DNA from: an uncultured Candidatus Peregrinibacteria bacterium
GTDB lineage: Bacteria > Patescibacteriota > Gracilibacteria > Peribacterales > Peribacteraceae
DNA: 64,000 nucleotides
Reading direction: 5' to 3'
NCBI GenBank assembly: GCA_903825315.1
Contig: CAIKAD010000003.1
Span: 11,053 to 75,052, forward strand
In this document: positions 2,433-58,771 of the stretch, in pieces
How the letters are laid out: each line of letters starts with the position of its first letter
Numbering within the stretch: position 1 is the first letter of the stretch
The notes under the pieces: model-generated
Databases searched by the model: none
Seen by the model: only the letters and a program-made list of their open reading frames with translations
Told to the model about the DNA's origin: nothing
Position numbers and translations under genes: made by a program

Positions 2433-2516
2433 GAGTATTAGAGTATTCGAGCATGCGAATATCGGGATTCTAGACTGCCCCAATATTCCATTATTCCTAT
2501 ATTCCGATATTCTTTC
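2433..2516. repeat. low-complexity element (GAATATTC units)
   Basis: gagtattagagtattcgagcatgcgaatatcggg...ccaatattccattattcctatattccgatattc. Confidence 0.6.
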
Positions 2517-4507: not shown

Positions 4508-5356
4508 ATGAAACGCCTCTACGCTTTTCCTGTAGTCCTGCTTCTGCTGACCGCCTGCGTGCAGGCGAACACAGGATACACATTGACCTTTGACCAGCAG
4601 GGACAGTCTCATAAACAGGAACTCATCGACACAGCCACACGCGTCATTTCGCGGCGCCTGCAACAACTGGAGCTGGAACTGCGCGGAAAGAAAGTGGAAC
4701 AGACGGCGGATGGTGCCGTCATACGGTTTGCTCTCGCCGACACATCAAAGCGTACATTCCTAGACCAGCAACTCTCAGCGTCCATTGATTTCCGCGTGAT
4801 GGTGGAAACCACCCAGGACAAGGCGGACATTTGGAATGATCAGGATGCCATCGGCTTCCGCGCAACGGGCATTACGGAAAAGAACGTCACTTGGGCAACA
4901 GCTACGCCGGCTCCGGTCTCGTCAGTGGGCGCAGCGGCAGGGAATAAGAAGGGGGGCGTCGTGACTATCGCGCTCGATACGGAAGGGCAAAAGCTCCTTG
5001 CCAAGACTATCCAGGAGAATGAAGGAAAGAGGATGGGCATCTTTGTGCGCGGAGCGCTCGTCACGTATAAGCGCATCGCCACTACCGATAAGCCGGAAGC
5101 CATCCCCATCGACGCCGTTCCTTCTTATGAGCTCGCCATCGTCTTTGCCGATGACGTCAATCTTGGCGCGCATGCTACGTTCACACCACTCACTCCTGCA
5201 GGAAACCAGACATCCAGCACAGGCGCCTCTCCATCATCTGCAGAACCATCAGTTTCCTCTACAGGTTCCACGACATCTTCCGTTGCTGCCTCTTCTGCCT
5301 CCGGCGCCATCCTTCCATCCTCTGGAACATCGTCATCCCTTATCACTAATCCCTAA
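4508..5356 (+). CDS. lipoprotein with SecD-periplasmic-domain-like segments and a Ser-rich tail
   Basis: Lipobox in MKRLYAFPVVLLLLTAC. RVISRRLQQLELE...AVIRFALAD and GIFVRGALV resemble SecD P1 motifs by eye. The ATG at 4508 is preferred over the ORF-track start at 4409. Confidence 0.5.
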   Translation: MKRLYAFPVVLLLLTACVQANTGYTLTFDQQGQSHKQELIDTATRVISRRLQQLELELRGKKVEQTADGAVIRFALADTSKRTFLDQQLSASIDFRVMVETTQDKADIWNDQDAIGFRATGITEKNVTWATATPAPVSSVGAAAGNKKGGVVTIALDTEGQKLLAKTIQENEGKRMGIFVRGALVTYKRIATTDKPEAIPIDAVPSYELAIVFADDVNLGAHATFTPLTPAGNQTSSTGASPSSAEPSVSSTGSTTSSVAASSASGAILPSSGTSSSLITNP

Positions 5357-5382
5357 TCTCTCATCCTTAGTCCCTCACTCCC

Positions 5383-7839
5383 ATGTCACGCTCCCGCCCT
5401 TTCTACTGGCCAGTTATCGCGGTTATCCTCGGCACTCTCATGGTGATCATCGCCCTTCCGCAGGAATGGAAAACTTGGGCGCCTGACATCATCAAACAAC
5501 CCGCGCTCCACCTGGGACTAGACCTGGTAGGGGGCACCCAGCTCGACTTCCGCATCTCCGAAGAGGAAATCCAGCAACAGTTGCGGCAGCTCGATAAGGA
5601 TATGGAGGACCTTAAGGCCAAGAATGCCCCCGCAGGCGACATGAATAAGCTGCAGGCGCAAAAGTTCAGCATCCAGACCCAACAGCAAAGTATCGTGGAA
5701 GCCATCCGCACCGTACTGGAACGCCGCATCAATGCGCTCGGCGTGAGCGAGGCAACCATCACACCGTCCTACATCGGCAACGAGAAGCACCTCCTCGTGG
5801 AATGCCCCGGCGTGGTGGATACGCAGGAATGCATCAAGGTGGTGGGCAAGACCATCCAGTTGGAATTCAAGGAGGAATTCACCCAACCGACCGAGTCTTT
5901 TAAGACCGACGTCCGCGCCAAGGCGGACGCCATGCTCCGACGCATCACCCAAAGCGGCTCCTCGCTCCAGAAGGAAGGACAGGACGTGGGTTCGCAACTG
6001 GGGATGGGTTATCAGGACCGGCTTCTGCTCTACAAGGACACCATCCCCAAAGGTCTCGAAAGCCTGTGGGGCAAGCAGCGGGGGAAAGTGTACAAGCTGG
6101 AGGGCAGTATCGATACCACGCAGCAGGACGAGAACGGCCAGCCGAAGCAGCAGACCATACCGGGCATCTTCCTTGCGGAAGTGACGCAGCCTCTCACCAT
6201 GACCGGACGGACGGTAACGGAAGCAGCCCGCGCCTTTGAGGTCCTGGGACAAACCGAAACGGGCGCCACCAACACCCCGCAGCAGAACGTCCCCATGAGC
6301 AGCATCAACCCCCTTATTGCCTCCGCGCTCACGTCCATGAAGGCAGGCGATCTTAAAGCCGTCTCGACGGGCACCGGCGCGGCGCACGTCCTCTTTTTGA
6401 GCGGCATCACAAAGGGAAAGGAGGAGATGGATCTGAGTCATATCCTCATCGCCTACAAGGGCGCCACAGAGGCGTCCGCTTCGGTCACGCGCACCAAGGA
6501 ACAGGCCCTTGCTCTCGCCAAGGAGATCAAAGCAAAGATCGATGGAGGAGCATCCTTCGCCGACCTCGCCAAGACACAGTCCGACGGCGCCACGTCCAAA
6601 GAAAAGGGCGGAAATCTGGGAGCAGTACAACGGGGAGAGTGGCCGCCGGCTTTTGACTCCGCCGCCTTCTCCCTTGCTTCCGGCAAGGTGAGCGATCCGG
6701 TGGAGACGCAGTACGGCTATCACATCATCCGCAGCAACGGCCCCAAGAAGACCAATCCCGACCTCGCCACATACAATGACCTTTCCCTCACGGGCCCCAA
6801 CGCCGAAGCCCGCGCCAACCTCCTCATCGGCCAGCTCAAGGGCGGCCAAGTACGCACACGGGAACAGGCTATGGAGGTTCGCACGGTGTTCTTCTCCCTT
6901 CTGCCTTCGGGCTGGAAGGACACCCCGCTCGACGGCAAGCACTTCCGCTCTGCCGCGGTCACCATGGATCCCACCACCAACATCCCCGTGGTGCAGATTC
7001 TCTTCGATGACGAGGGAGGCAAGCTGTTCCAGGAACTCACCAAGCGGAATATTCAGAAGCGCATCGCCATTTTCGTGGGCGGCCAGCTCGTCTCCGCACC
7101 TACCGTACAAACGGAAATTTCCGGCGGCTCCGCCGTGATTACGGGGAGCAACAGCTTTGACGAGGCGCGCCAGCTGGCACAGGACCTCAATACGGGCGCC
7201 ATTCCGGCCCCCATCTACCTCGTGGGGCAATACACGGTAGAAGCCACCCTCGGAGCAGCCGCACTCCTTACGTCGCTCCAAGCTGCCTTCATCGGCACGC
7301 TCATCCTCATGGTCTACATGCTCTTCATGTACCGCCTGCTGGGCCTCATGGCAGACATCGCGCTGGCCATGTACGCCATTATGCTCGCTGCCATCCTCAA
7401 GCTCCCGCTCCTCCTCTTCTCGTCCAACTACATCGTCCTCACGCTCGCCGGCATGGCGGGAATCATCCTGAGCATCGGTATGGCCGTGGACGCCAACGTG
7501 CTGGTATTTGAGCGCGTAAAAGAAGAACTGCGCAAAGGCAAGCTTGTGCGGACTGCTGTGGAAGCCAGCTTCAAGCATGCCTGGCCGGCTATCCGCGATA
7601 GCAACGTCTCCACGCTCATCACCTGCGGCATCCTCTTTATCATCGGAACGTCGATTATACGCGGGTTCGCCATCACGCTCAGTATGGGCGTGCTCCTCTC
7701 CATGCTCACGGCTGTTATCGTAACCCGCTGGCTCCTGCGCCATCTCGCCCGCACCCCGCTCGCCAATCGTCCCGAGCTCTTCTGCGGACAGAAGCTGAGT
7801 ACCGCAGAAGATGTCGGCATGGTGGAAACGTCTGTTTGA
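5383..7839 (+). CDS. secD: protein translocase subunit SecD with an inserted PpiC/parvulin-type PPIase domain
   Basis: N-terminal TM helix, then LDLVGGTQLDF and ERRINALGVSEATI. C-terminal six-TM SecD core (GMAVDANVLVFERVKEE). Residues ~349-453 (nt 6427-6741) form a complete parvulin motif set: SHILI...FADLAK..SDG.S...GGNLG...YGYHII. Confidence 0.9.
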   Translation: MSRSRPFYWPVIAVILGTLMVIIALPQEWKTWAPDIIKQPALHLGLDLVGGTQLDFRISEEEIQQQLRQLDKDMEDLKAKNAPAGDMNKLQAQKFSIQTQQQSIVEAIRTVLERRINALGVSEATITPSYIGNEKHLLVECPGVVDTQECIKVVGKTIQLEFKEEFTQPTESFKTDVRAKADAMLRRITQSGSSLQKEGQDVGSQLGMGYQDRLLLYKDTIPKGLESLWGKQRGKVYKLEGSIDTTQQDENGQPKQQTIPGIFLAEVTQPLTMTGRTVTEAARAFEVLGQTETGATNTPQQNVPMSSINPLIASALTSMKAGDLKAVSTGTGAAHVLFLSGITKGKEEMDLSHILIAYKGATEASASVTRTKEQALALAKEIKAKIDGGASFADLAKTQSDGATSKEKGGNLGAVQRGEWPPAFDSAAFSLASGKVSDPVETQYGYHIIRSNGPKKTNPDLATYNDLSLTGPNAEARANLLIGQLKGGQVRTREQAMEVRTVFFSLLPSGWKDTPLDGKHFRSAAVTMDPTTNIPVVQILFDDEGGKLFQELTKRNIQKRIAIFVGGQLVSAPTVQTEISGGSAVITGSNSFDEARQLAQDLNTGAIPAPIYLVGQYTVEATLGAAALLTSLQAAFIGTLILMVYMLFMYRLLGLMADIALAMYAIMLAAILKLPLLLFSSNYIVLTLAGMAGIILSIGMAVDANVLVFERVKEELRKGKLVRTAVEASFKHAWPAIRDSNVSTLITCGILFIIGTSIIRGFAITLSMGVLLSMLTAVIVTRWLLRHLARTPLANRPELFCGQKLSTAEDVGMVETSV

Positions 7840-7844
7840 TTTGG

Positions 7845-7917
7845 GAAGAGTATTGAAATAAGGGAATAACAGAGTAACAGGCCCCCTGTTATTCCGTTAT
7901 TCTGTTACTCTGTTCCT
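7845..7917. repeat. long hairpin (AATAACAG units)
   Basis: The stem is centred on taacagg-ccc-cctgtta (7875-7891). It extends to about 24 bp with a few mismatches. Confidence 0.75.
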
Positions 7918-7928
7918 CCCCATACCCT

Positions 7929-13065: not shown

Positions 13066-13176
13066 GAGGATGCAGAAGATACAAGAGATGCAGAAGAATC
13101 AGAGGAGCAAATATTCAACACTTTCTCTGGCACATTCTCTTCTGCATCCTCTGCATCCTCTGCTTCTTCTGCTTCC
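13066..13176. repeat. low-complexity inverted-repeat element (GCAGAAG/GATGCAG units)
   Basis: ggaggatgcagaagatacaagagatgcagaagaatcagaggag on the left, ctcttctgcatcctctgcatcctctgcttcttctgcttcc on the right. Confidence 0.75.
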
Positions 13177-13179
13177 TTC

Positions 13180-16389: not shown

Positions 16390-16483
16390 AGGAGTAACAG
16401 AATAACAGAGTAAGAGAATAACAGGGATCCTCTCCGAACCCAGAAACCTGTTATTCTGCTCTTCCCTTATTCCATTATTCCCT
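16390..16483. repeat. low-complexity inverted-repeat element (AATAACAG units)
   Basis: gagtaacagaataacagagtaagagaataacaggg on the left, cctgttattctgctcttcccttattccattattcc on the right. Confidence 0.7.
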
Positions 16484-22820: not shown

Positions 22821-22890
22821 TTGAAGAAGGAATTTTGTATCAAGAATAGAAAGGATTCCTAATTCATAATTCTTGATTCCAGATTCTTCA
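22821..22890. repeat. low-complexity inverted-repeat element (AAGAAT units)
   Basis: caagaat...attcttg are exactly complementary. Flanked by gaagaaggaat / attccagattcttc. Confidence 0.6.
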
Positions 22891-44038: not shown

Positions 44039-44703
44039 CAGTTGAGACGCAGGACGATACGGAAGGGGGAGTGGACGCCTACGACGGGATCATCCTTGCG
44101 GGTGTAGAGCGGGGGTGTTACGGAAGCGGTGAAGGAAAAATTTTTGCACCCCTCCGTGAACTCCGAGAGCAGCGTGAGGCTGCGCGGTCCCACGTTGCGC
44201 ACGTCTCCTTCCAGCACCAACGTCCCCTGCTCCAGGGTGATGGCATTGAGGTGGATGGCATCGTCGACAGGGGAGAGTGACTTTGCCGAATGGATGACCT
44301 CCTCGCGCATGGCGATGAACGAGCTGGGAGTGCGGCGCTCCGCCTTGAGCGCGTCGTACGCAGGATCATTGAGCGGCAAGACGGATGTATCGCGCTCCAG
44401 CTCCAACGTGGCTACCTGCGCTGCGAGTTGCGCTTTGTATGTGAGGAGCGAGCGCGCATCGCGCTCCACGCCAGCCACCTTCACCTGCGTAAAGAGCGGC
44501 AGGAAAAGCGTAATGGAAAGCAGAAGAAGAGCTGTGAGAACCGCCGCAAATATGAAAAGCGGTATGGAAACACTATGCAGAATCATGCGTAGCCGCGGCA
44601 TAGCCGTAGGCGAAGACGGACACGTTTCGGCAGAGCCGGACGGTTCAGAGCCACCGACAGGTGGCCCTAGCGCGGGCACAGAAGGAGGAACGGTGTCTGG
44701 CAT
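44038..44703 (-). CDS. bitopic membrane protein, unknown function
   Basis: 221-aa ORF. Pro/Ser-rich N-terminus, one TM helix, a coiled-coil-like segment, then a small C-terminal domain. Confidence 0.45.
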   Translation of the reverse strand: MPDTVPPSVPALGPPVGGSEPSGSAETCPSSPTAMPRLRMILHSVSIPLFIFAAVLTALLLLSITLFLPLFTQVKVAGVERDARSLLTYKAQLAAQVATLELERDTSVLPLNDPAYDALKAERRTPSSFIAMREEVIHSAKSLSPVDDAIHLNAITLEQGTLVLEGDVRNVGPRSLTLLSEFTEGCKNFSFTASVTPPLYTRKDDPVVGVHSPFRIVLRLN

Positions 44704-44775
44704 GTGTTTTCTTGATAGTATAGCGGAAAATGATGATTTGGTGAAGGTGGGGAATCTTGACAGCCTGAAGATGTA

Positions 44776-44898
44776 GAGGAAACGAAGGAATCAGAGGATG
44801 CAGAAGAGAAATCCCTCAGGAATACGATAAATGACCTCTCCTCTGCTTCTTCTGCATCATTTGCTTCTTCTGCGTCTTTTGCCTCCTCTGCATCCTCC
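44776..44898. repeat. low-complexity inverted-repeat element (GCAGAAG/GATGCAG units)
   Basis: ggaatcagaggatgcagaagag on the left. ctctgcttcttctgcatcatttgcttcttctgcg...cctctgcatcctcc on the right. Confidence 0.7.
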
Positions 44899-44958
44899 CA
44901 AGTCCTATCACTATCACCACCGAACCTGTACCATAACCCCAGTCCTTACTCCGTTCCT

Positions 44959-46045
44959 GTGGAAGAACTCCTCCAGAAAATCACCGAGCTTCAGTCCGCC
45001 GTGAATACGGGGAAGGACTCACTTTGAGGCGAGAAACGTGCCAACACAGATCGCGGAGTTGGAGCGCCAGACATTGGAGCCCAGTTTTTGGAATGACCAG
45101 AAGGCGGCACAGGGCGTTTTTGCCAAGTTGAAGGGGTTCAAGAAGCTGTGGGATCCGGTCTCGGAACTGGCACAGGGCCTCCAGGAACTTTGGGAGCTTA
45201 CACAGCATGCCGAGCCTGGCGATGTCCCCAGCCTCGAAGAGGAATACCGGCGGTACCAAGAGTTGTGGAAAGGAACAGAAGTGCAGCTCTACCTCGGTGG
45301 AGAGTTCGACCTGGGAAATTGCTATCTGACGATCAGCAGCGGCGCCGGCGGAACAGAAGCGCAGGACTGGGCATCGATGCTTGTGCGCATGTACCTGCGC
45401 TACTGCGAACGGAAAGGATGGAACGCCAACCTCATGGAAAAAACGGACGGCCAGGAGGCGGGCATCAAGACCGCTACGTTCCACGTGGCCGGTGAAATGG
45501 CGTACGGGAACTTGAAGTGTGAGCGCGGGACGCATCGGCTCGTGCGGCTCTCCCCCTTCAACGCCAAGAACCTCCGCCAGACAAGCTTTGCCCTCGTGGA
45601 AGCGCTGCCGGAGATTGAGGAGACGGACGAGATCGACATCAACCCCAACGATCTGCGCATCGATACCTACCGCAGCGGGGGAGCGGGCGGACAGAACGTG
45701 AACAAGGTGGAGACGGCTGTGCGCATCACACATCTTCCCTCAGGGATAGTGGTCGCCTGCCAGACGGAACGCAGCCAACTCCAGAACCGCCAACGGGCGA
45801 TGAACCTCCTGCGCGCCAAGCTCCTGGAGAAGCAGAGAAGGGAAGAAATGGAACAGAAGGCGGAGCTCAAAGGCGCCACGCAGTCCGCAGACTTCGGTCA
45901 GCAGATCCGCAGCTACGTCCTCCATCCGTACCAGATGGTCAAAGACCTGCGAACGGACACGGAGACGAGTGACACGACAGGCGTTCTCGATGGCGACATC
46001 CAGCAGTTCGTGGATGCGGAGCTAAAGAGGGAAGCCCGGGAATAG
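44959..46045 (+). CDS. prfB: peptide chain release factor 2, requires programmed +1 frameshift at 45022-45028
   Basis: Frame 0 runs from GTG 44959 ([22 protein letters not shown]) to CTT TGA at 45022-45027. The +1 frame continues as [13 protein letters not shown].... SPF and GGQ motifs are present. Confidence 0.9.
45008..45028 (+). other. RF2 recoding site
   Basis: GGGGAAGG (SD-like), 6 nt, then CUU UGA G. Confidence 0.8.
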
Positions 46046-46058
46046 TACGGATAACAAA

Positions 46059-46083
46059 AATGGCACCTCATGGAGGCACCATT
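46059..46083. terminator. imperfect hairpin shared by convergent prfB and the histone-fold ORF
   Basis: aatggCAcctc-atg-gaggCAccatt. The stem has a 2-nt internal mismatch. A-run on one side, U-poor on the other. Confidence 0.4.
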
Positions 46084-46108
46084 CTCGTTGTCAGGTTAAA
46101 CCGGACGA

Positions 46109-46279
46109 TTAAAGATCGTACGGGCGGACCGTTACGCGGCCGTTGTCCTTGGCGCGCTTGACGGCCAGGGCCAATGCCTTCTCGAGGGACGCGGATGCGG
46201 CCTCCGGGAAATCGCCGGCCGTCATCATGCCCTGCTTCTTGAGGTAGTCCTTGATCGCAGATGCTACGACGTAACTCAT
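46109..46279 (-). CDS. 56-aa histone-fold DNA-binding protein (bacterial singlet-histone / DUF1931-like)
   Basis: Not in the ORF track because it is under 60 aa. Sequence MSYVVASAIKDYLKKQGMMTAGDFPEAASASLEKALALAVKRAKDNGRVTVRPYDL. It has GC3-rich codons like its neighbours and a GR.TV...D signature. It displaces the Arg/Pro-rich 95-aa ORF in another frame. Confidence 0.6.
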   Translation of the reverse strand: MSYVVASAIKDYLKKQGMMTAGDFPEAASASLEKALALAVKRAKDNGRVTVRPYDL

Positions 46280-46309
46280 AGGAATGGGGTAAAAGGGTAA
46301 AACAGAGCG

Positions 46310-46337
46310 ATTGTAGGGGCGACTTTGGCCTCTGCAA
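46310..46337 (-). promoter_or_regulatory. candidate promoter of the histone-fold ORF
   Basis: Minus strand: TTGCAG-16 nt-TACAAT, about 30 nt upstream of the ATG. Confidence 0.3.
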
Positions 46338-46602
46338 GTGCATTTTCCTCAACAAATCGCCAATTGCACAAAGAGAGGATACGACTATGAATATCTTACT
46401 TTTACTCTATATAAAGCCAAAATGTCCTATTTTCCAGGCCTGAATTTTAGATTTTTAAGTACTATTTTAAATATTTAGTCAATGAATGAAGACCTGCTAC
46501 GCAGATGGCAGCGCCACGTAATCGCGAGCAGCCACGTAAAGCTCGCTTCGCTCGCCACGTGGCTCGTCAAATCGCTTCTTGCTTCGCTGCGAGCGATTGT
46601 AC

Positions 46603-46723
46603 TGGCGGTGGGAGAGGCCGGCTTCGCCTTCGGCTACGCCGCGCCATGAGCGCTATAACATGAACAAACCGCAAGCCAATCGCAGCGTAGTTCGCAAACG
46701 AAGCCGGATGGCGGTGGGAGAGG
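46603..46723. repeat. 15-nt direct repeat (tRNA-Ser 3' end) flanking a 91-bp mini-palindrome
   Basis: tggcggtgggagagg occurs at 46603-46617 and 46709-46723. The insert 46618-46708 has 9-bp termini ccggcttcg / cgaagccgg. Confidence 0.8.
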
Positions 46724-46799
46724 GATTCGAACCCTCGAACCCCTTTTGGGGGTTACGCGATTTCGAGTCGCGCGCCTTCGACCACTCGGCCATCCCACC
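46709..46799 (-). tRNA. tRNA-Ser (anticodon CGA), CCA encoded
   Basis: The 91-nt cloverleaf was read manually. Acceptor GGTGGGA/TCCCACC. Anticodon stem CGCGA/TCGCG with loop CTCGAAA. Long variable arm CCCC-CAAAA-GGGG. T arm GAGGG-TTCGAAT-CCCTC. Discriminator G followed by CCA. Confidence 0.9.
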
Positions 46800-46888
46800 G
46801 GAAAAAGTGTATCACGAGATTGCGGGAGACAGAACGTCAACACGGGCTCGCACGCAAAAAGGAGTGCTTCCGTGTACAGTGACCGCCG

Positions 46889-47998
46889 ATGCGCCTGCGT
46901 TTCCTCATTCCATGCGTCGGATTCTGCCTCACCCTCGCGGCATGCGGGCAGCAGCCCGAAGCACGGCAGAAGAACCTCCCACAGGAGCCCGTCGTCCGTT
47001 CCGTTCACATCTCGGCTGGCACGGTGGAAACGCCGCCGGAAGACCTGGCGTTTCTCGACCGCTACCAGGTGACGGACCGCAACCTCCTCGGTTTTGTGGA
47101 ACTCACGCCCGCCCCGGCAGAGCGACTCGTGCGCGCCATGTGGTATATGCCCGACGAACGGCAGCCCATGCTAGGCAGCGCCAGCGTGATCCTCACCCCC
47201 AATGCCTTCCTCACCCGCTTCATCCTGTCGAACCCGGAAGACTGGAAGCCCACCCCGCTCCTCCTGCGCGTTACGGTGTCCAAACCCCGAAGCAAGAAGA
47301 CGGTTCTCGGAAGCGGAAGCGTCCAGGTGTACATGGGAATGGACGACGCGGCGGTCACCCAGTACACAAGCGAATACAACGACTGGGTGCGGCGCATGAC
47401 GGAAGGGGAGGAAGCACTGCAACCGGAAGGCGCGCAGGAACGGGAGCTCCTCACGATTGCACAGGAGTACCTGCGGGCACCATCGCCTATCCTCGCGCTG
47501 CGGGTGGACCTCAACGGCGATGCCGTGCAGGACGACCTCTTCCTCGACACGCGCGGCGAGCCGCCCTTCCGCCGCTCCCGCGATCCGGCCATTCTCCTCA
47601 CCGCGCGAGTACGGCAATTCGTAGCGCTCAACGAAAAGGGCGTCGCTCTGCTGCTCCTGCGCGAAGAGGGAAACGGAAGCGGCCGCGTGCTTCGCACCCA
47701 GAGCTGGCCCCTCGGGGCTCCGCTCCCCTCCGCCTCCACCCCCATCACGCTCACCGTCTCCCCGTCGCTGCGCTTCTCCCTCTCGTGGCCGGAACGGAGC
47801 AGGACATGCTCCATCATCGTCGTCCCCCGGGAGAAAGGCTTCCAACAGGAAGCCACCACCGCCTGTGAAGATCCATCCAAGCCCGAAGTACCACCGCAGC
47901 CTTCCAATATGGAGCAGCTCCTCAAGCTTCTTACGTCAGAAATCGTCATGGTGCTGCAGAAGCCCATGAATTTGTTGGGTTCTGTTCTCCCTGAATGA
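46889..47998 (+). CDS. lipoprotein, unknown function
   Basis: MRLRFLIPCVGFCLTLAAC contains a lipobox. 369 aa with normal composition, preferred over the overlapping Arg-rich 429-aa ORF. Confidence 0.55.
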   Translation: MRLRFLIPCVGFCLTLAACGQQPEARQKNLPQEPVVRSVHISAGTVETPPEDLAFLDRYQVTDRNLLGFVELTPAPAERLVRAMWYMPDERQPMLGSASVILTPNAFLTRFILSNPEDWKPTPLLLRVTVSKPRSKKTVLGSGSVQVYMGMDDAAVTQYTSEYNDWVRRMTEGEEALQPEGAQERELLTIAQEYLRAPSPILALRVDLNGDAVQDDLFLDTRGEPPFRRSRDPAILLTARVRQFVALNEKGVALLLLREEGNGSGRVLRTQSWPLGAPLPSASTPITLTVSPSLRFSLSWPERSRTCSIIVVPREKGFQQEATTACEDPSKPEVPPQPSNMEQLLKLLTSEIVMVLQKPMNLLGSVLPE

Positions 47999-48007
47999 AC
48001 AACTGAC

Positions 48008-48099
48008 GAATTGAAAATTGAAAATGAGAAATGGAAAATTCTGAAAGCTATTGAAATCCCGAATGACTTCCATCATTTTCAATTTTTCATTTCCCATTC
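48008..48099. repeat. low-complexity inverted-repeat element (TGAAAAT/GGAAAAT units)
   Basis: ttgaaaattgaaaatgagaaatggaaaat on the left, catcattttcaatttttcatttcccattc on the right. Confidence 0.7.
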
Positions 48100-49069
48100 A
48101 CAAAAGATTCCCTGTTCTCTTCGGGGGATCAATCTTCGGGACATCCAATGCTTTATAGATATCCTCCTCTTCTTTGCTCGCGATCACTCTGTCTCCCTCA
48201 AACAACCCATACTCATTCAACTTCCAGCCTTTTTGGATCGCCTTCTTGCGGAGCGTGATGTTGTGTTCCTTGTCTCCCGTAAAGTAGAGGAGCGCCGCGC
48301 CCCACTGGTCCGGCTGGACAAAGCGGACGTCCACGCGGAGGCCGGACTTCAAATCGAACGAGACTTTGGTGCCGCCGTGTGCAACCACCCGAACAACGAT
48401 GGGTAAAGCGGCAACGGCGTCCGCCACCTTCTGCGTATCCCTGCCGATTACCACAATATCCACATCACCCACCGTCTCTTTGTGCCTCCGGAACGACCCC
48501 GCGGCCTCCACACGTTCTACGCCCGGGATGCTCTCGAGAGTCTTCAAAAGCTTCGCGACATCATCTTCAACATCCTTGCGCGGAAACCGGCGCGAGCGCG
48601 ACTGCACGTTGCGCGCGTTCTCCAGAATCTTCTTCTCCATGAGCTCGGAGAAGCGGGGGAGCGTGCGGAGCTTTCCCGCTTCGGCTGCCTTGATAAGGTC
48701 GGCGACCGTCTGGATGCCCAGTTCCTTCTGGAGGACCCGCGCTCGCCGGGGGCCGAGGTCATCAATCATCAACAGATCCGGCGAGATGCCGCCCTGCTGC
48801 GCGAGGAGATCATCGAGTGCCTTGATTCTCCCCGTCTCGCGATACTCCAGAATCTTCCCCGCAATCGCCTCGCCAATGCCGGGCAGTTCCATCAATTCCT
48901 TCTCGCTCTTGAAGGTCGAAACATCCTGCGGCAGATCCTCGATCACTTTAGCCGCCTTAAAGTACGCAGCCGGTTTAAACTGCACACCCTGCTCCTGCAA
49001 GAGAACACCGATCTGACGGAGGAGCATCCCGATCCCCTTATTTTCCGCCTTCTGCTCATTCTTTGCCAT
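48098..49069 (-). CDS. family X (Pol beta-like) DNA polymerase core, no PHP domain
   Basis: HhH motifs LPGIGEAIAGKI. Nucleotidyltransferase motif GSFRRHKETVGDVDIVV. The ORF ends at the ...IDPPKR linker, where bacterial PolX normally continues into a PHP domain. Confidence 0.75.
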   Translation of the reverse strand: MAKNEQKAENKGIGMLLRQIGVLLQEQGVQFKPAAYFKAAKVIEDLPQDVSTFKSEKELMELPGIGEAIAGKILEYRETGRIKALDDLLAQQGGISPDLLMIDDLGPRRARVLQKELGIQTVADLIKAAEAGKLRTLPRFSELMEKKILENARNVQSRSRRFPRKDVEDDVAKLLKTLESIPGVERVEAAGSFRRHKETVGDVDIVVIGRDTQKVADAVAALPIVVRVVAHGGTKVSFDLKSGLRVDVRFVQPDQWGAALLYFTGDKEHNITLRKKAIQKGWKLNEYGLFEGDRVIASKEEEDIYKALDVPKIDPPKRTGNLL

Positions 49070-52691: not shown

Positions 52692-52820
52692 AGGATGCAA
52701 AGGTTGCAGAAGATGCAGAAGAGGCAGAGGAATGATGATACATCGCTTCGAAAGCAGGGTGATGACTATTCCTCTGCATCCTCTGCTACCCCTGCATCTT
52801 CTGTATCTTTCCTGTGGTCG

Positions 52821-57558: not shown

Positions 57559-57696
57559 TGACCGCTGGAAAGATGCAGAAGATGCAGGGGTAGCAAAGGA
57601 TGCAGAGGAATGGTCATCACCCTGCTTCCGAAGCGATTTACCATCATTCCTCTGATTCTCCTGCATCTTCTGCATCTATTGATCCCCCTGCATCCT

Positions 57697-58685: not shown

Positions 58686-58771
58686 GAAAAGAATCATGAA
58701 TACAGAATCAAGAATCAAGATATTCATTATTCTTAATTCCTAATTCTTAATTCTTCTTATTCTCCTCGTGA
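58686..58771. repeat. low-complexity inverted-repeat element (AAGAATC units)
   Basis: gaatcatgaatacagaatcaagaatcaaga on the left, attcttaattcctaattcttaattcttcttattc on the right. It overlaps the 3' end of the FAD gene. Confidence 0.7.

What the first reader, a model, noticed from the sequence alone, without database searches (positions are those of the whole stretch)
46109..46279. Untracked 56-aa ORF looks like a bacterial singlet histone-fold protein
Minus-strand ORF: MSYVVASAIKDYLKKQGMMTAGDFPEAASASLEKALALAVKRAKDNGRVTVRPYDL.

The pattern has a hydrophobic N-terminal strand, K..LKK.G.M, a helix, then AK.NGR.TV...D. It matches what I remember of histone-fold singlets such as the Bdellovibrio histone and DUF1931 proteins. 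This includes the R-T...D signature of the histone fold.

Codon third positions are GC-rich like real genes. The competing 95-aa ORF in another frame is Arg/Pro-rich. The ORF is bracketed by a hairpin shared with prfB and by a TTGCAG-16-TACAAT box.

A histone-type nucleoid protein next to a genome full of AT-rich palindromes invites the idea that the two are connected. That link is pure speculation.
Basis: partly seen in the sequence, partly recalled or inferred. Interest (0 to 1): 0.65.

Follow-up and report, generated by a model that had tools for sequence, protein, structure and literature searches.

The report
Small bacterial histone gene in Peribacteria
The 56-codon ORF is a real, strongly conserved gene for a miniature histone-fold DNA-packaging protein in an uncultured Peribacteria (candidate phyla radiation) bacterium; it belongs to a recently described bacterial histone family and its close relatives were already listed in a published survey, so it is a correct call, not a new kind of thing.

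Summary
Against orthologs dN/dS is 0.08-0.36. The competing 95-aa frame has stop codons in relatives. The gene has its own conserved sigma-70-type promoter and a strong terminator hairpin. It keeps the slot polX -> gene -> <- prfB in most of 47 Peribacteria loci.

The best solved-structure match is the Leptospira perolatii histone HLp (profile E=1.7e-11), followed by Bdellovibrio HBb and archaeal HTkC. The AlphaFold model (pLDDT 86.8) has helix 1, a long helix 2 and a truncated C-terminus. All top 50 Foldseek hits are histones.

[quoted passage not shown] By homology it most likely forms dimers that pair into a tetramer and wraps about 60 bp of DNA non-specifically. Tetramer formation could not be tested here.

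Pfam and NCBIfam miss it. JGI already names cluster mates "histone H3/H4". Hocher et al. 2023 (Suppl. Table 1) lists the 56-aa Candidatus Peribacter riflensis ortholog.

Nothing supports a link to the intergenic palindromes. Interest is low to moderate.

The parts
46109..46279 (-). Coding sequence of a 56-aa alpha3-truncated (face-to-face-like) histone-fold protein. The stop codon TAA is at 46109-46111. Calculated pI 9.45, 6.0 kDa.
   Evidence: ORF list. Purifying selection, with stops in the other frames of relatives. Similarity to HLp, HBb and HTkC. AF2 model and Foldseek. pI and mass.
46310..46337 (-). Sigma-70-type promoter: -35 TTGCAG (46337-46332), 16-nt spacer, -10 TACAAT (46315-46310).
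   Evidence: Sequence. The same TTGC[NN]-N16(18)-TA[C/G]AAT lies 28-33 nt before the ATG in 43 of 44 distinct Peribacteria upstream regions. The hexamers are conserved and the spacer is variable. The generic consensus scan did not report it because TTGCAG matches TTGACA at only 3 of 6 positions.
46280..46309 (-). 30-nt interval from the -10 box to the ATG. It holds the C/T-rich 5' leader with TTTTACCC x2 (46287-46302) and no Shine-Dalgarno sequence.
   Evidence: Lack of an SD sequence is typical of this genome: about 6 of 60 crude gene calls have one.
46053..46089 (-). Intrinsic terminator hairpin followed by a U-run. It lies between the histone stop codon and the end of the convergent prfB.
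   Evidence: dG -27.7 kcal/mol, z -6.85 on the minus strand; -16.7, z -2.1 on the plus strand. Every ortholog locus has a strong hairpin (-20 to -33 kcal/mol) in the 70 nt after the stop, with differing sequences.
45038..46045 (+). Context: prfB (release factor 2), convergent neighbour. Its N-terminal part is joined through the canonical +1 frameshift site CTT TGA at 45022-45027.
   Evidence: ORF translation. PCRF/RF-1 domains in the syntenic genes. Frame analysis.
46709..46799 (-). Context: tRNA-Ser(CGA), upstream on the same strand.
   Evidence: ARAGORN. Rfam tRNA, 60.3 bits.

Best explanation
The ORF encodes a bacterial histone of the alpha3-truncated family, face-to-face (FtF) subgroup, in a Candidatus Peribacteraceae (Peregrinibacteria, candidate phyla radiation) genome.

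Shown here:
- It is a real gene under purifying selection.
- It appears to be its own transcription unit, with a conserved promoter and its own terminator.
- It is homologous to solved bacterial and archaeal histones, and its predicted fold is alpha1 (3-15), L1, alpha2 (23-45), L2 and a very short alpha3.
- It keeps every FtF signature residue.

Inferred by homology to Leptospira HLp and archaeal HTkC:
- Two chains form a handshake dimer.
- Two dimers join face to face. R42 bonds the C-terminal carboxylate (L56) of the opposite dimer, and N46 bonds R48, giving a ring-shaped tetramer.
- DNA is contacted without sequence specificity by the alpha1 N-terminus (A6-S7, K10, K14), L1 (T20, G22) and L2 (R48, T50).
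- About 60 bp wraps around the tetramer and compacts the small genome.

More speculative: that it is an abundant, perhaps principal, nucleoid protein.

The confidence of 0.7 is for the full statement including the FtF/tetramer assignment. That it is a real gene encoding an alpha3 histone-fold protein I put at about 0.95.
For: Gene reality:
- dN/dS is 0.08-0.36, differences are biased to third codon positions, and the other frames have stops in relatives.
- 62 clusters at 66-98% identity are nearly all 56 aa.
- The scan of one genome per GTDB species returned 43 loci, 41 labelled Peribacteria, Peregrinibacteria, Peribacteraceae or Patescibacteria group.
- Synteny polX -> gene -> <- prfB holds in most of 47 loci.
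- The promoter footprint is present in 43 of 44 distinct upstream regions, and there is a strong terminator.

Histone identity:
- Profile against PDB: HLp 1.7e-11, HBb 1.9e-7, HTkC 1.8e-5, with nucleosomal HMfA just below threshold at 0.4.
- AF2 pLDDT is 86.8. All top 50 Foldseek PDB hits are histones, led by HLp and HBb.

FtF assignment:
- The FtF profile's strongest residues are R48, N52, R54, T56 and D61 (R41, N45, R47, T49, D54 in Haloferax D4GZE0, whose chain ends at residue 55) (PMC11390915).
- They correspond with identical spacing to R42, N46, R48, T50 and D55 here. All five are invariant in 53 orthologs, and L56 is the last residue.
- HLp tetramer residues R49, N53 and R55 and clamp residue D62 map to the same positions (PMC12701072; alignment).
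- HBb has S and D at the R42 and N46 positions.

Dimer proxy:
- Natural 119-aa tandem doublets of the same fold (~50% identical) model at pLDDT 94.9 and pTM 0.86 as a handshake pseudodimer.
- Each half superposes on HLp at 0.7 A, against 1.5 A for HBb.

Wrapping, compaction and sequence-independent binding are experimental results for HLp (PMC12701072).
Against: - No multimer prediction could be run, so the tetramer, which defines FtF histones, is untested for this protein.
- Two basic DNA-contact positions of HLp and its relatives are neutral in this sub-clade: A8 where HLp has K15, and V49 in place of the K of RKT. Net charge is only about +2.5. The FtF profile also lacks a conserved K at the RKT position.
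- S52 and T61 of the HLp interface are D45 and a variable residue here.
- There is no expression, abundance or DNA-binding data for any Peregrinibacteria histone.
- Pfam and NCBIfam give no hit for this sequence.
- Whether the genome also encodes HU is unknown; only 64 kb was available.
Confidence: 0.7

Rival explanations
1. It is a histone of the 'bacterial dimer' (Bdellovibrio HBb-like) type. It stays a dimer and bends DNA locally, rather than forming a tetramer that wraps DNA.
For: HBb chains match the monomer model as well as HLp does (TM 0.73-0.74 against 0.72). The sequence match to HBb is significant (E=1.9e-7). Two basic residues used by HLp are lost. Tetramerisation was not tested.
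Against: Schwab et al. state that bacterial dimers lack R48 and N52 of the FtF profile. This protein and all 53 orthologs have both (R42, N46), whereas HBb has S and D there. The HLp match is about four orders of magnitude better. The chain ends immediately after D55-L56, as in FtF histones, whereas HBb continues. Halves of the related doublets superpose on HLp at 0.7 A and on HBb at 1.5 A.
Confidence: 0.2
2. It is a histone-fold protein that no longer binds DNA and serves as a protein-protein module, as proposed for DUF1931 pseudodimers.
For: The positive charge is modest (+2.5). V replaces the K of RKT and A8 replaces a contact lysine. Some orthologs give weak DUF1931 hits (15 of 53, best E=0.0046).
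Against: Most DNA-contact positions of HLp are kept and nearly invariant: S7, K10, K14, T20, G22, R48, T50. The calculated pI of 9.45 matches the 9.46 of the aligned 54-residue HLp segment. It is a singlet of 56 aa, not a ~150-aa pseudodimer. The window protein has no DUF1931 hit.
Confidence: 0.07
3. The ORF is not a gene: it is a chance open frame, or the overlapping 95-aa Arg/Pro-rich ORF (46068-46355, -) is the real product.
For: The ORF is short. No Pfam or NCBIfam hit. No Shine-Dalgarno sequence.
Against: dN/dS is 0.08-0.36, and the 95-aa frame is broken by stops in all three compared relatives. Length and sequence are conserved in more than 60 clusters. The promoter and terminator are placed for this ORF. 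SD sequences are rare throughout this window.
Confidence: 0.01

Closest known systems
HLp, face-to-face (FtF) alpha3 histone of Leptospira perolatii (PDB 9QT0/9QT1/9QT2; PMC12701072)
   Same: About 40% identity over the whole chain with no gaps. Same helix lengths. Same tetramer-interface residues (HLp R49, N53, R55 = R42, N46, R48), same RD clamp (R55-D62 = R48-D55), and a hydrophobic C-terminal residue directly after the clamp Asp. Same DNA-contact positions S14, K17, K21, T27, G29, T57 (= S7, K10, K14, T20, G22, T50).
   Different: No N-terminal extension (56 aa; the deposited HLp chain is 65 aa). A8 for K15, V49 for T56, D45 for S52, and a variable residue for T61. Different phylum (Peregrinibacteria/CPR, not Spirochaetota). 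Different gene neighbourhood (polX/prfB, not smc/map). No experimental data.
HTkC (Thermococcus kodakarensis, PDB 9F2C) and Haloferax D4GZE0, archaeal FtF histones (PMC11390915)
   Same: R-x3-N-x-R-x-T-x4-D-x-COOH spacing identical to D4GZE0. The profile match to HTkC is significant (1.8e-5).
   Different: Lower similarity. In the, 32 alignments HTkC needs a 2-residue insertion in L1 and has E at the N46 position. Archaeal hosts.
HBb / Bd0055, 'bacterial dimer' histone of Bdellovibrio bacteriovorus (PDB 8FVX, 8CMP, 9EZZ)
   Same: Alpha3-truncated singlet histone fold with an RxT...D motif. TM 0.73-0.74, profile E=1.9e-7.
   Different: HBb lacks the two FtF interface residues (S and D instead of R42 and N46), has a one-residue longer L1 in the alignment, and continues past the clamp Asp. 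It bends DNA as a dimer.
Peribacter/Peregrinibacteria singlet histones in the survey of Hocher et al. 2023 (Suppl. Table 1: Ca. Peribacter riflensis ALM10226.1, Peribacter sp. UBA1555/UBA6535, PJA68061.1)
   Same: Orthologs: 56 aa, same MSYVVAS start and ...RA..NGR.TVR..DL end. 63% identical to ALM10226.1.
   Different: Those proteins keep K8 and the K of RKT, whereas the window's sub-clade has A8 and V49. They were catalogued only. They are not mentioned in the main text of the three papers searched and have not been characterised.
DUF1931 (Pfam PF09123) pseudodimeric histones (Aquifex Aq_328 1R4V, Thermus 1WWI)
   Same: Histone-fold superfamily. The label 'DUF1931 domain-containing protein' is attached to the HLp deposition.
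   Different: DUF1931 proteins are ~150-aa two-fold pseudodimers, said to lack the DNA-binding signature residues. The window protein is a singlet with those residues and gives no PF09123 hit.

Membership tests
Alpha3-truncated prokaryotic histones (Schwab et al. 2024) | Histone-fold topology alpha1-L1-alpha2-L2-alpha3, with alpha3 cut to 3-4 residues and alpha2 shortened by 4-5 residues | tested here: met
   AF2 model at pLDDT 86.8: helices 3-15 and 23-45 (23 residues), then 11 residues with no long third helix. The related doublet model shows a 3-residue alpha3 in each half. Definition from PMC11390915.
Alpha3-truncated prokaryotic histones (Schwab et al. 2024) | RxTxxxxD motif (L2 loop and RD clamp) | tested here: met
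   R48-V49-T50-V51-R52-P53-Y54-D55. R48, T50 and D55 are invariant in 53 orthologs.
Alpha3-truncated prokaryotic histones (Schwab et al. 2024) | Significant sequence and structure similarity to solved members | tested here: met
   HLp 1.7e-11, HBb 1.9e-7, HTkC 1.8e-5. All top 50 Foldseek hits are histones.
Histone fold in general | Obligate handshake dimer with L1-L2 beta-bridges | not testable with these tools
Proxy only: natural 119-aa doublets about 50% identical fold as a handshake pseudodimer (pLDDT 94.9, pTM 0.86, beta-bridges in L1 and L2). They match single-chain H2A-H2B, viral doublets and HMk.
Face-to-face (FtF) histones | Torus-shaped homotetramer (the defining criterion of Schwab et al.; solved for HTkC and HLp) | not testable with these tools
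   No multimer prediction is available. Inferred only from the interface residues.
Face-to-face (FtF) histones | Conserved interface and L2 residues R48, N52, R54, T56, D61 of the FtF profile | tested here: met
   R42, N46, R48, T50 and D55 have identical spacing and are all invariant in 53 orthologs. They equal HLp R49, N53, R55, T57 and D62.
Face-to-face (FtF) histones | Chain ends one residue after the clamp Asp, so the C-terminal carboxylate can bond the interface Arg | tested here: met
   D55-L56-stop. All but one of the 53 orthologs (a 52-aa entry) end at D-L or D-I. [quoted passage not shown] The HLp interface uses F63, the residue after D62.
Face-to-face (FtF) histones | Conserved alpha1 lysine (profile K16) | tested here: met
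   K10 (= HLp K17) is nearly invariant and K14 (= HLp K21) also. The less conserved K14 position of the profile is A8 here. The position mapping is my own, derived from the HLp alignment.
Bacterial dimer histones (HBb-like) | Clusters by sequence with HBb and lacks the FtF residues R48 and N52 | tested here: not met
   Both residues are present and invariant. HBb has S and D there. The HBb match is about 10^4-fold weaker than the HLp match.
DUF1931 (PF09123) pseudodimeric histones | Two histone folds in one ~150-aa chain; hit to PF09123 above threshold | tested here: not met
   56-aa singlet. No PF09123 hit at E<=10. Only sub-threshold hits in 15 of 53 orthologs.
Archaeal nucleosomal histones / CBFD_NFYB_HMF (PF00808) | Full-length alpha2 and ~10-residue alpha3; Pfam hit | tested here: not met
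   No long alpha3. No PF00808 hit for this protein. HMfA reaches only E=0.4 with the profile.

The most novel reading that the evidence does not exclude
In these reduced-genome CPR bacteria the FtF histone is the principal chromatin protein, packaging DNA in tetramer particles. The unusual intergenic architecture of the genome then acts as positioning or exclusion signals for those particles. That architecture consists of short 7-9-nt tandem arrays, often mirrored into long AT-rich hairpins, in the spacers between genes. Nothing here tests this. The characterised homolog binds DNA sequence-independently, with a mild preference for 40% GC.
Probability: 0.05. Interest if true: 0.75.

Novelty: new member of a known kind. 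Interest (0 to 1): 0.3.

Why it matters
Bacterial histones were recognised only recently, and three have been studied experimentally (Bdellovibrio HBb, Leptospira interrogans and L. perolatii HLp). This locus shows that an FtF-type histone is a fixed, syntenic, independently transcribed core gene across the class Peribacteria of the candidate phyla radiation. It also shows that standard domain libraries (Pfam, NCBIfam/PGAP) still miss it, so NCBI records call it "hypothetical protein". This is useful for annotation and for choosing CPR histones for biochemistry. It does not change the current picture, because Peribacter orthologs were already in a published catalogue and JGI already labels them histone H3/H4.

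Tried and rejected
- Pfam and NCBIfam scans of the protein gave no histone hit. Scanning all 53 orthologs gave only sub-threshold DUF1931, Histone and CBFD_NFYB_HMF hits.
A natural doublet was used as a proxy.
- The generic promoter scan did not report the TTGCAG/TACAAT pair, and the terminator scan missed the hairpin. Comparative alignment and folding were used instead.
- Rfam on 44500-48200 found only the tRNA.
This is uninformative, because only 64 kb plus ~12-kb flanks were searched.
- Text searches for Peregrinibacteria or Patescibacteria together with histone found no relevant paper. There was no mention in the main text of the three key papers or in the Schwab supplements held as text. 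The only mention is in the supplementary tables of Hocher et al..
- The 95-aa alternative ORF was rejected as a gene.
- The palindrome link was examined only far enough to confirm that the repeats exist. The one short 8-nt x2 repeat in the histone leader resembles those of other genes and does not argue for a special relationship.

Full report
**1. The observation**

The minus-strand ORF at 46109..46279 exists exactly as quoted: ATG start, 56 codons, TAA stop.
- GC at codon positions 1/2/3 is 0.60/0.42/0.81.
- The competing 95-aa Arg/Pro-rich ORF is at 46068..46355 (-).
- The TTGCAG-16 nt-TACAAT pair lies at 46337..46310, 30 nt before the ATG.
- prfB (45038..46045, +) converges on the ORF, with a hairpin between them.
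- A tRNA-Ser(CGA) lies upstream on the same strand at 46709..46799.

**2. Is it a gene?**

Yes.
- A word-indexed search of 5.8 billion proteins found 62 clusters at 66-98% identity. Nearly all are exactly 56 aa. The named ones come from Candidatus Peribacteraceae or Peregrinibacteria metagenome-assembled genomes.
- The exact sequence is in public collections on 9 contigs.
- Against three orthologs of decreasing similarity, dN/dS is 0.08, 0.27 and 0.29.
- Differences by codon position are 2/3/14, 11/7/19 and 10/8/20.
- Both other frames, including the 95-aa ORF's frame, contain stop codons in the relatives.

**3. Transcription unit**

Promoter.
- Among 44 distinct upstream regions, 43 carry TTGC[NN]-N16 (39 cases) or N18 (4 cases)-TA[C/G]AAT.
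- The motif ends 28-33 nt before the ATG.
- Information content is high in the hexamers and low in the spacer, which is a phylogenetic footprint of a sigma-70-type promoter.

Leader.
- The leader is C/T-rich, carries TTTTACCC x2, and has no Shine-Dalgarno sequence.
- That is normal in this window. Only about 6 of 60 crude gene calls have an SD-like motif.

Terminator.
- The 59 nt after the stop (46050-46108) fold at -27.7 kcal/mol (z = -6.9), with a 17-bp stem followed by a U-run.
- The same DNA read on the prfB strand gives only -16.7 (z = -2.1). It is therefore mainly the histone gene's terminator.
- All 47 ortholog loci have a -20 to -33 kcal/mol structure in the 70 nt after the stop, with unrelated sequences in distant relatives.

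Position.
- The order S-adenosylhomocysteinase, family-X polymerase (polX), [variable], histone, then convergent prfB... IF3-L35-L20 is conserved.
- In four loci the histone gene alone is inverted within this slot, as expected for a self-contained unit.

**4. What the protein is**

Domain libraries.
- Pfam and NCBIfam give nothing for this sequence.

Solved structures, by sequence.
- phmmer against PDB finds 9QT0 at E=9.3e-8 over residues 3-55 without gaps. This is HLp of Leptospira perolatii.
- Weaker hits are 8FVX/8CMP (Bdellovibrio HBb) and 9F2C (Thermococcus HTkC).
- A profile of 53 orthologs raises these to 1.7e-11, 1.9e-7 and 1.8e-5. Archaeal nucleosomal HMfA sits just below threshold at 0.4.

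Structure prediction.
- AlphaFold2 with the ortholog alignment gives pLDDT 86.8, with helices at 3-15 and 23-45 and a short non-helical C-terminus.
- Foldseek against the PDB returns only histones in the top 50. HLp (TM 0.72, 39% identity) and HBb (0.73-0.74) lead.
- E-values are modest because the chain is short.

Wider family.
- An exhaustive HMMER pass over 1.84 billion representatives found 105 relatives at E<=1e-3.
- These share the pattern (V/I)VASK(V/I)K...G....GD......RA..NGRKTVR..DL.

**5. Which kind of histone**

Schwab et al. (PMC11390915) define alpha3 histones by a 3-4-residue alpha3 and a shortened alpha2. Within them, face-to-face (FtF) histones are defined by a torus-shaped tetramer.

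Signature residues.
- The strongest conserved FtF residues are R48, N52, R54, T56 and D61 of their profile. These are R41, N45, R47, T49 and D54 in Haloferax D4GZE0.
- The window protein has R42, N46, R48, T50 and D55 with identical spacing and ends at L56.
- All five are invariant in 53 orthologs, and all but one truncated entry end at D-L or D-I.

Mapping to HLp.
- In the HLp crystal structures the tetramer interface uses R49, S52, N53 / R55, T61, F63, and the RD clamp is R55-D62 (PMC12701072).
- With paper numbering equal to query numbering plus 7 (derived from the alignment), R49, N53, R55, D62 and F63 correspond to R42, N46, R48, D55 and L56.
- S52 and T61 correspond to D45 and a variable position.
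- HLp DNA-contact residues S14, K17, K21, T27, G29 and T57 are kept (S7, K10, K14, T20, G22, T50).
- K15 and T56 are A8 and V49 in this sub-clade. Peribacter riflensis retains K at both positions.

Contrast with the dimer type.
- "Bacterial dimer" histones such as HBb lack profile R48 and N52.
- HBb has S and D at those positions.

The protein is therefore best filed as FtF-like, not HBb-like and not DUF1931.

**6. Dimer proxy**

- The exhaustive search turned up 118-119-aa tandem doublets of the same fold, about 50% identical to the query. Both halves keep the N-x-R-K-T-x4-D motif.
- They occur in another Peregrinibacteria lineage, in Candidatus Altimarinota, and in one archaeal MAG, among others.
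- One doublet with its alignment models at pLDDT 94.9 and pTM 0.86, with L1 and L2 beta-bridges.
- The whole chain matches viral histone doublets, single-chain H2A-H2B, Methanopyrus HMk and the DUF1931 structures.
- Each half superposes on HLp at 0.7 A rmsd (TM 0.93-0.94) and on HBb at 1.5 A.
- This supports handshake pairing in this clade's fold, but it concerns a relative, not the window protein.

**7. Mechanism**

Shown: a real, conserved gene with its own promoter and terminator signals, encoding an alpha3 histone fold with intact FtF interface and most DNA-contact residues. Calculated pI is 9.45 and mass 6.0 kDa.

Inferred from HLp experiments: a stable tetramer, about 60 bp wrapped, compaction in tethered-particle assays, supercoiling introduced in topoisomerase assays, and sequence-independent binding with a mild optimum at 40% GC.

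Speculative: a role as a major nucleoid protein.
- The Leptospira interrogans homolog is described as abundant and essential, and that organism is said to lack HU.
- For Peribacteria neither abundance nor HU status is known.

**8. Novelty**

- The family is known (Hocher 2023; Schwab 2024; HLp paper 2025).
- The main texts list Spirochaetota, Planctomycetota, Bdellovibrionota and Myxococcota for bacterial FtF histones. They never mention Peregrinibacteria or Patescibacteria.
- Supplementary Table 1 and the singlet alignment of Hocher et al. already contain 56-aa proteins from Ca. Peribacter riflensis (ALM10226.1), Peribacter sp. UBA1555 and UBA6535, and a Peregrinibacteria MAG.
- The first of these is 63% identical to the window protein.
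- JGI/IMG labels cluster mates "histone H3/H4", while NCBI calls them hypothetical.
- The find is therefore a new member of a known kind. Increments added here: the FtF assignment, class-wide synteny, the promoter and terminator anatomy, and the A8/V49 substitutions.

**9. The palindrome speculation**

- The window does contain many intergenic 7-9-nt tandem arrays, several mirrored into long imperfect hairpins.
- Nothing ties them to the histone, and the characterised homolog is not sequence-specific.
- The idea is left as a low-probability possibility.

Noticed in passing
window 2480-2512, 5335-5375, 7847-7920, 13141-13177, 16391-16481, 22830-22886, 44839-44897, 52770-52807, 57580-57677, 58689-58755: Intergenic spacers carry short tandem arrays of 7-9-nt units (3-6 copies), with a different unit in each spacer. 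Several arrays are mirrored into long imperfect hairpins, for example 7847-7872/7886-7911 and 16391-16425/16447-16481. On the sense strand they form C/T-rich 5' leaders. Their function is unknown.
   Followed up: partly
whole window (60 crude gene calls): Only about 6 of 60 genes have a GGAG/GAGG/AGGA motif within 20 nt of the first start codon. Leaders typically end in C/T-rich runs such as CTCACTCCC-ATG. Translation initiation therefore seems largely independent of Shine-Dalgarno pairing.
   Followed up: partly
window 45005-45040: prfB keeps the canonical programmed +1 frameshift site CTT TGA (45022-45027), preceded by a purine-rich GGGGAAGGA. This is one of the few SD-like sequences in the window.
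   Followed up: partly
L012, L014, L015, L044 (histone at about 6001-6171, or 5596-5766 in L012): In four Peribacteria lineages the histone gene alone is inverted between polX and prfB, while the flanking genes keep their relative order.
   Followed up: no
P0063-P0066, P0179-P0247; loci L050 6001-6360, L051 6001-6360: There are tandem 118-119-aa doublets of the same alpha3 fold. Both halves keep the N-x-R-K-T-x4-D motif, and they model as a confident pseudodimer (pLDDT 94.9). In Peregrinibacteria bacterium Gr01-1014_25 the doublet lies in the same prfB / IF3-L35-L20 neighbourhood as the singlet, suggesting duplication and fusion in place. In a Ca. Altimarinota MAG it sits next to rpmH-rnpA-yidC. 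They look distinct from DUF1931 pseudodimers. I did not check whether they have been described.
   Followed up: partly
window 46505-46580 (minus strand): There are three copies of ACGTGGC within about 50 nt, in a GC-rich stretch between the tRNA-Ser and the AT-rich region upstream of the histone promoter. In a relative (L002) this interval holds a 112-aa GIY-YIG ORF. Not analysed further.
   Followed up: no
L048 2440-2598; L049 3660-3818 and 243-509: The closest relatives found outside Peregrinibacteria are in a Margulisiibacteriota MAG (62% identity) and a Bdellovibrionota MAG (49%). The Bdellovibrionota contig also encodes an HU homolog about 3 kb away, so histone and HU coexist there.
   Followed up: no
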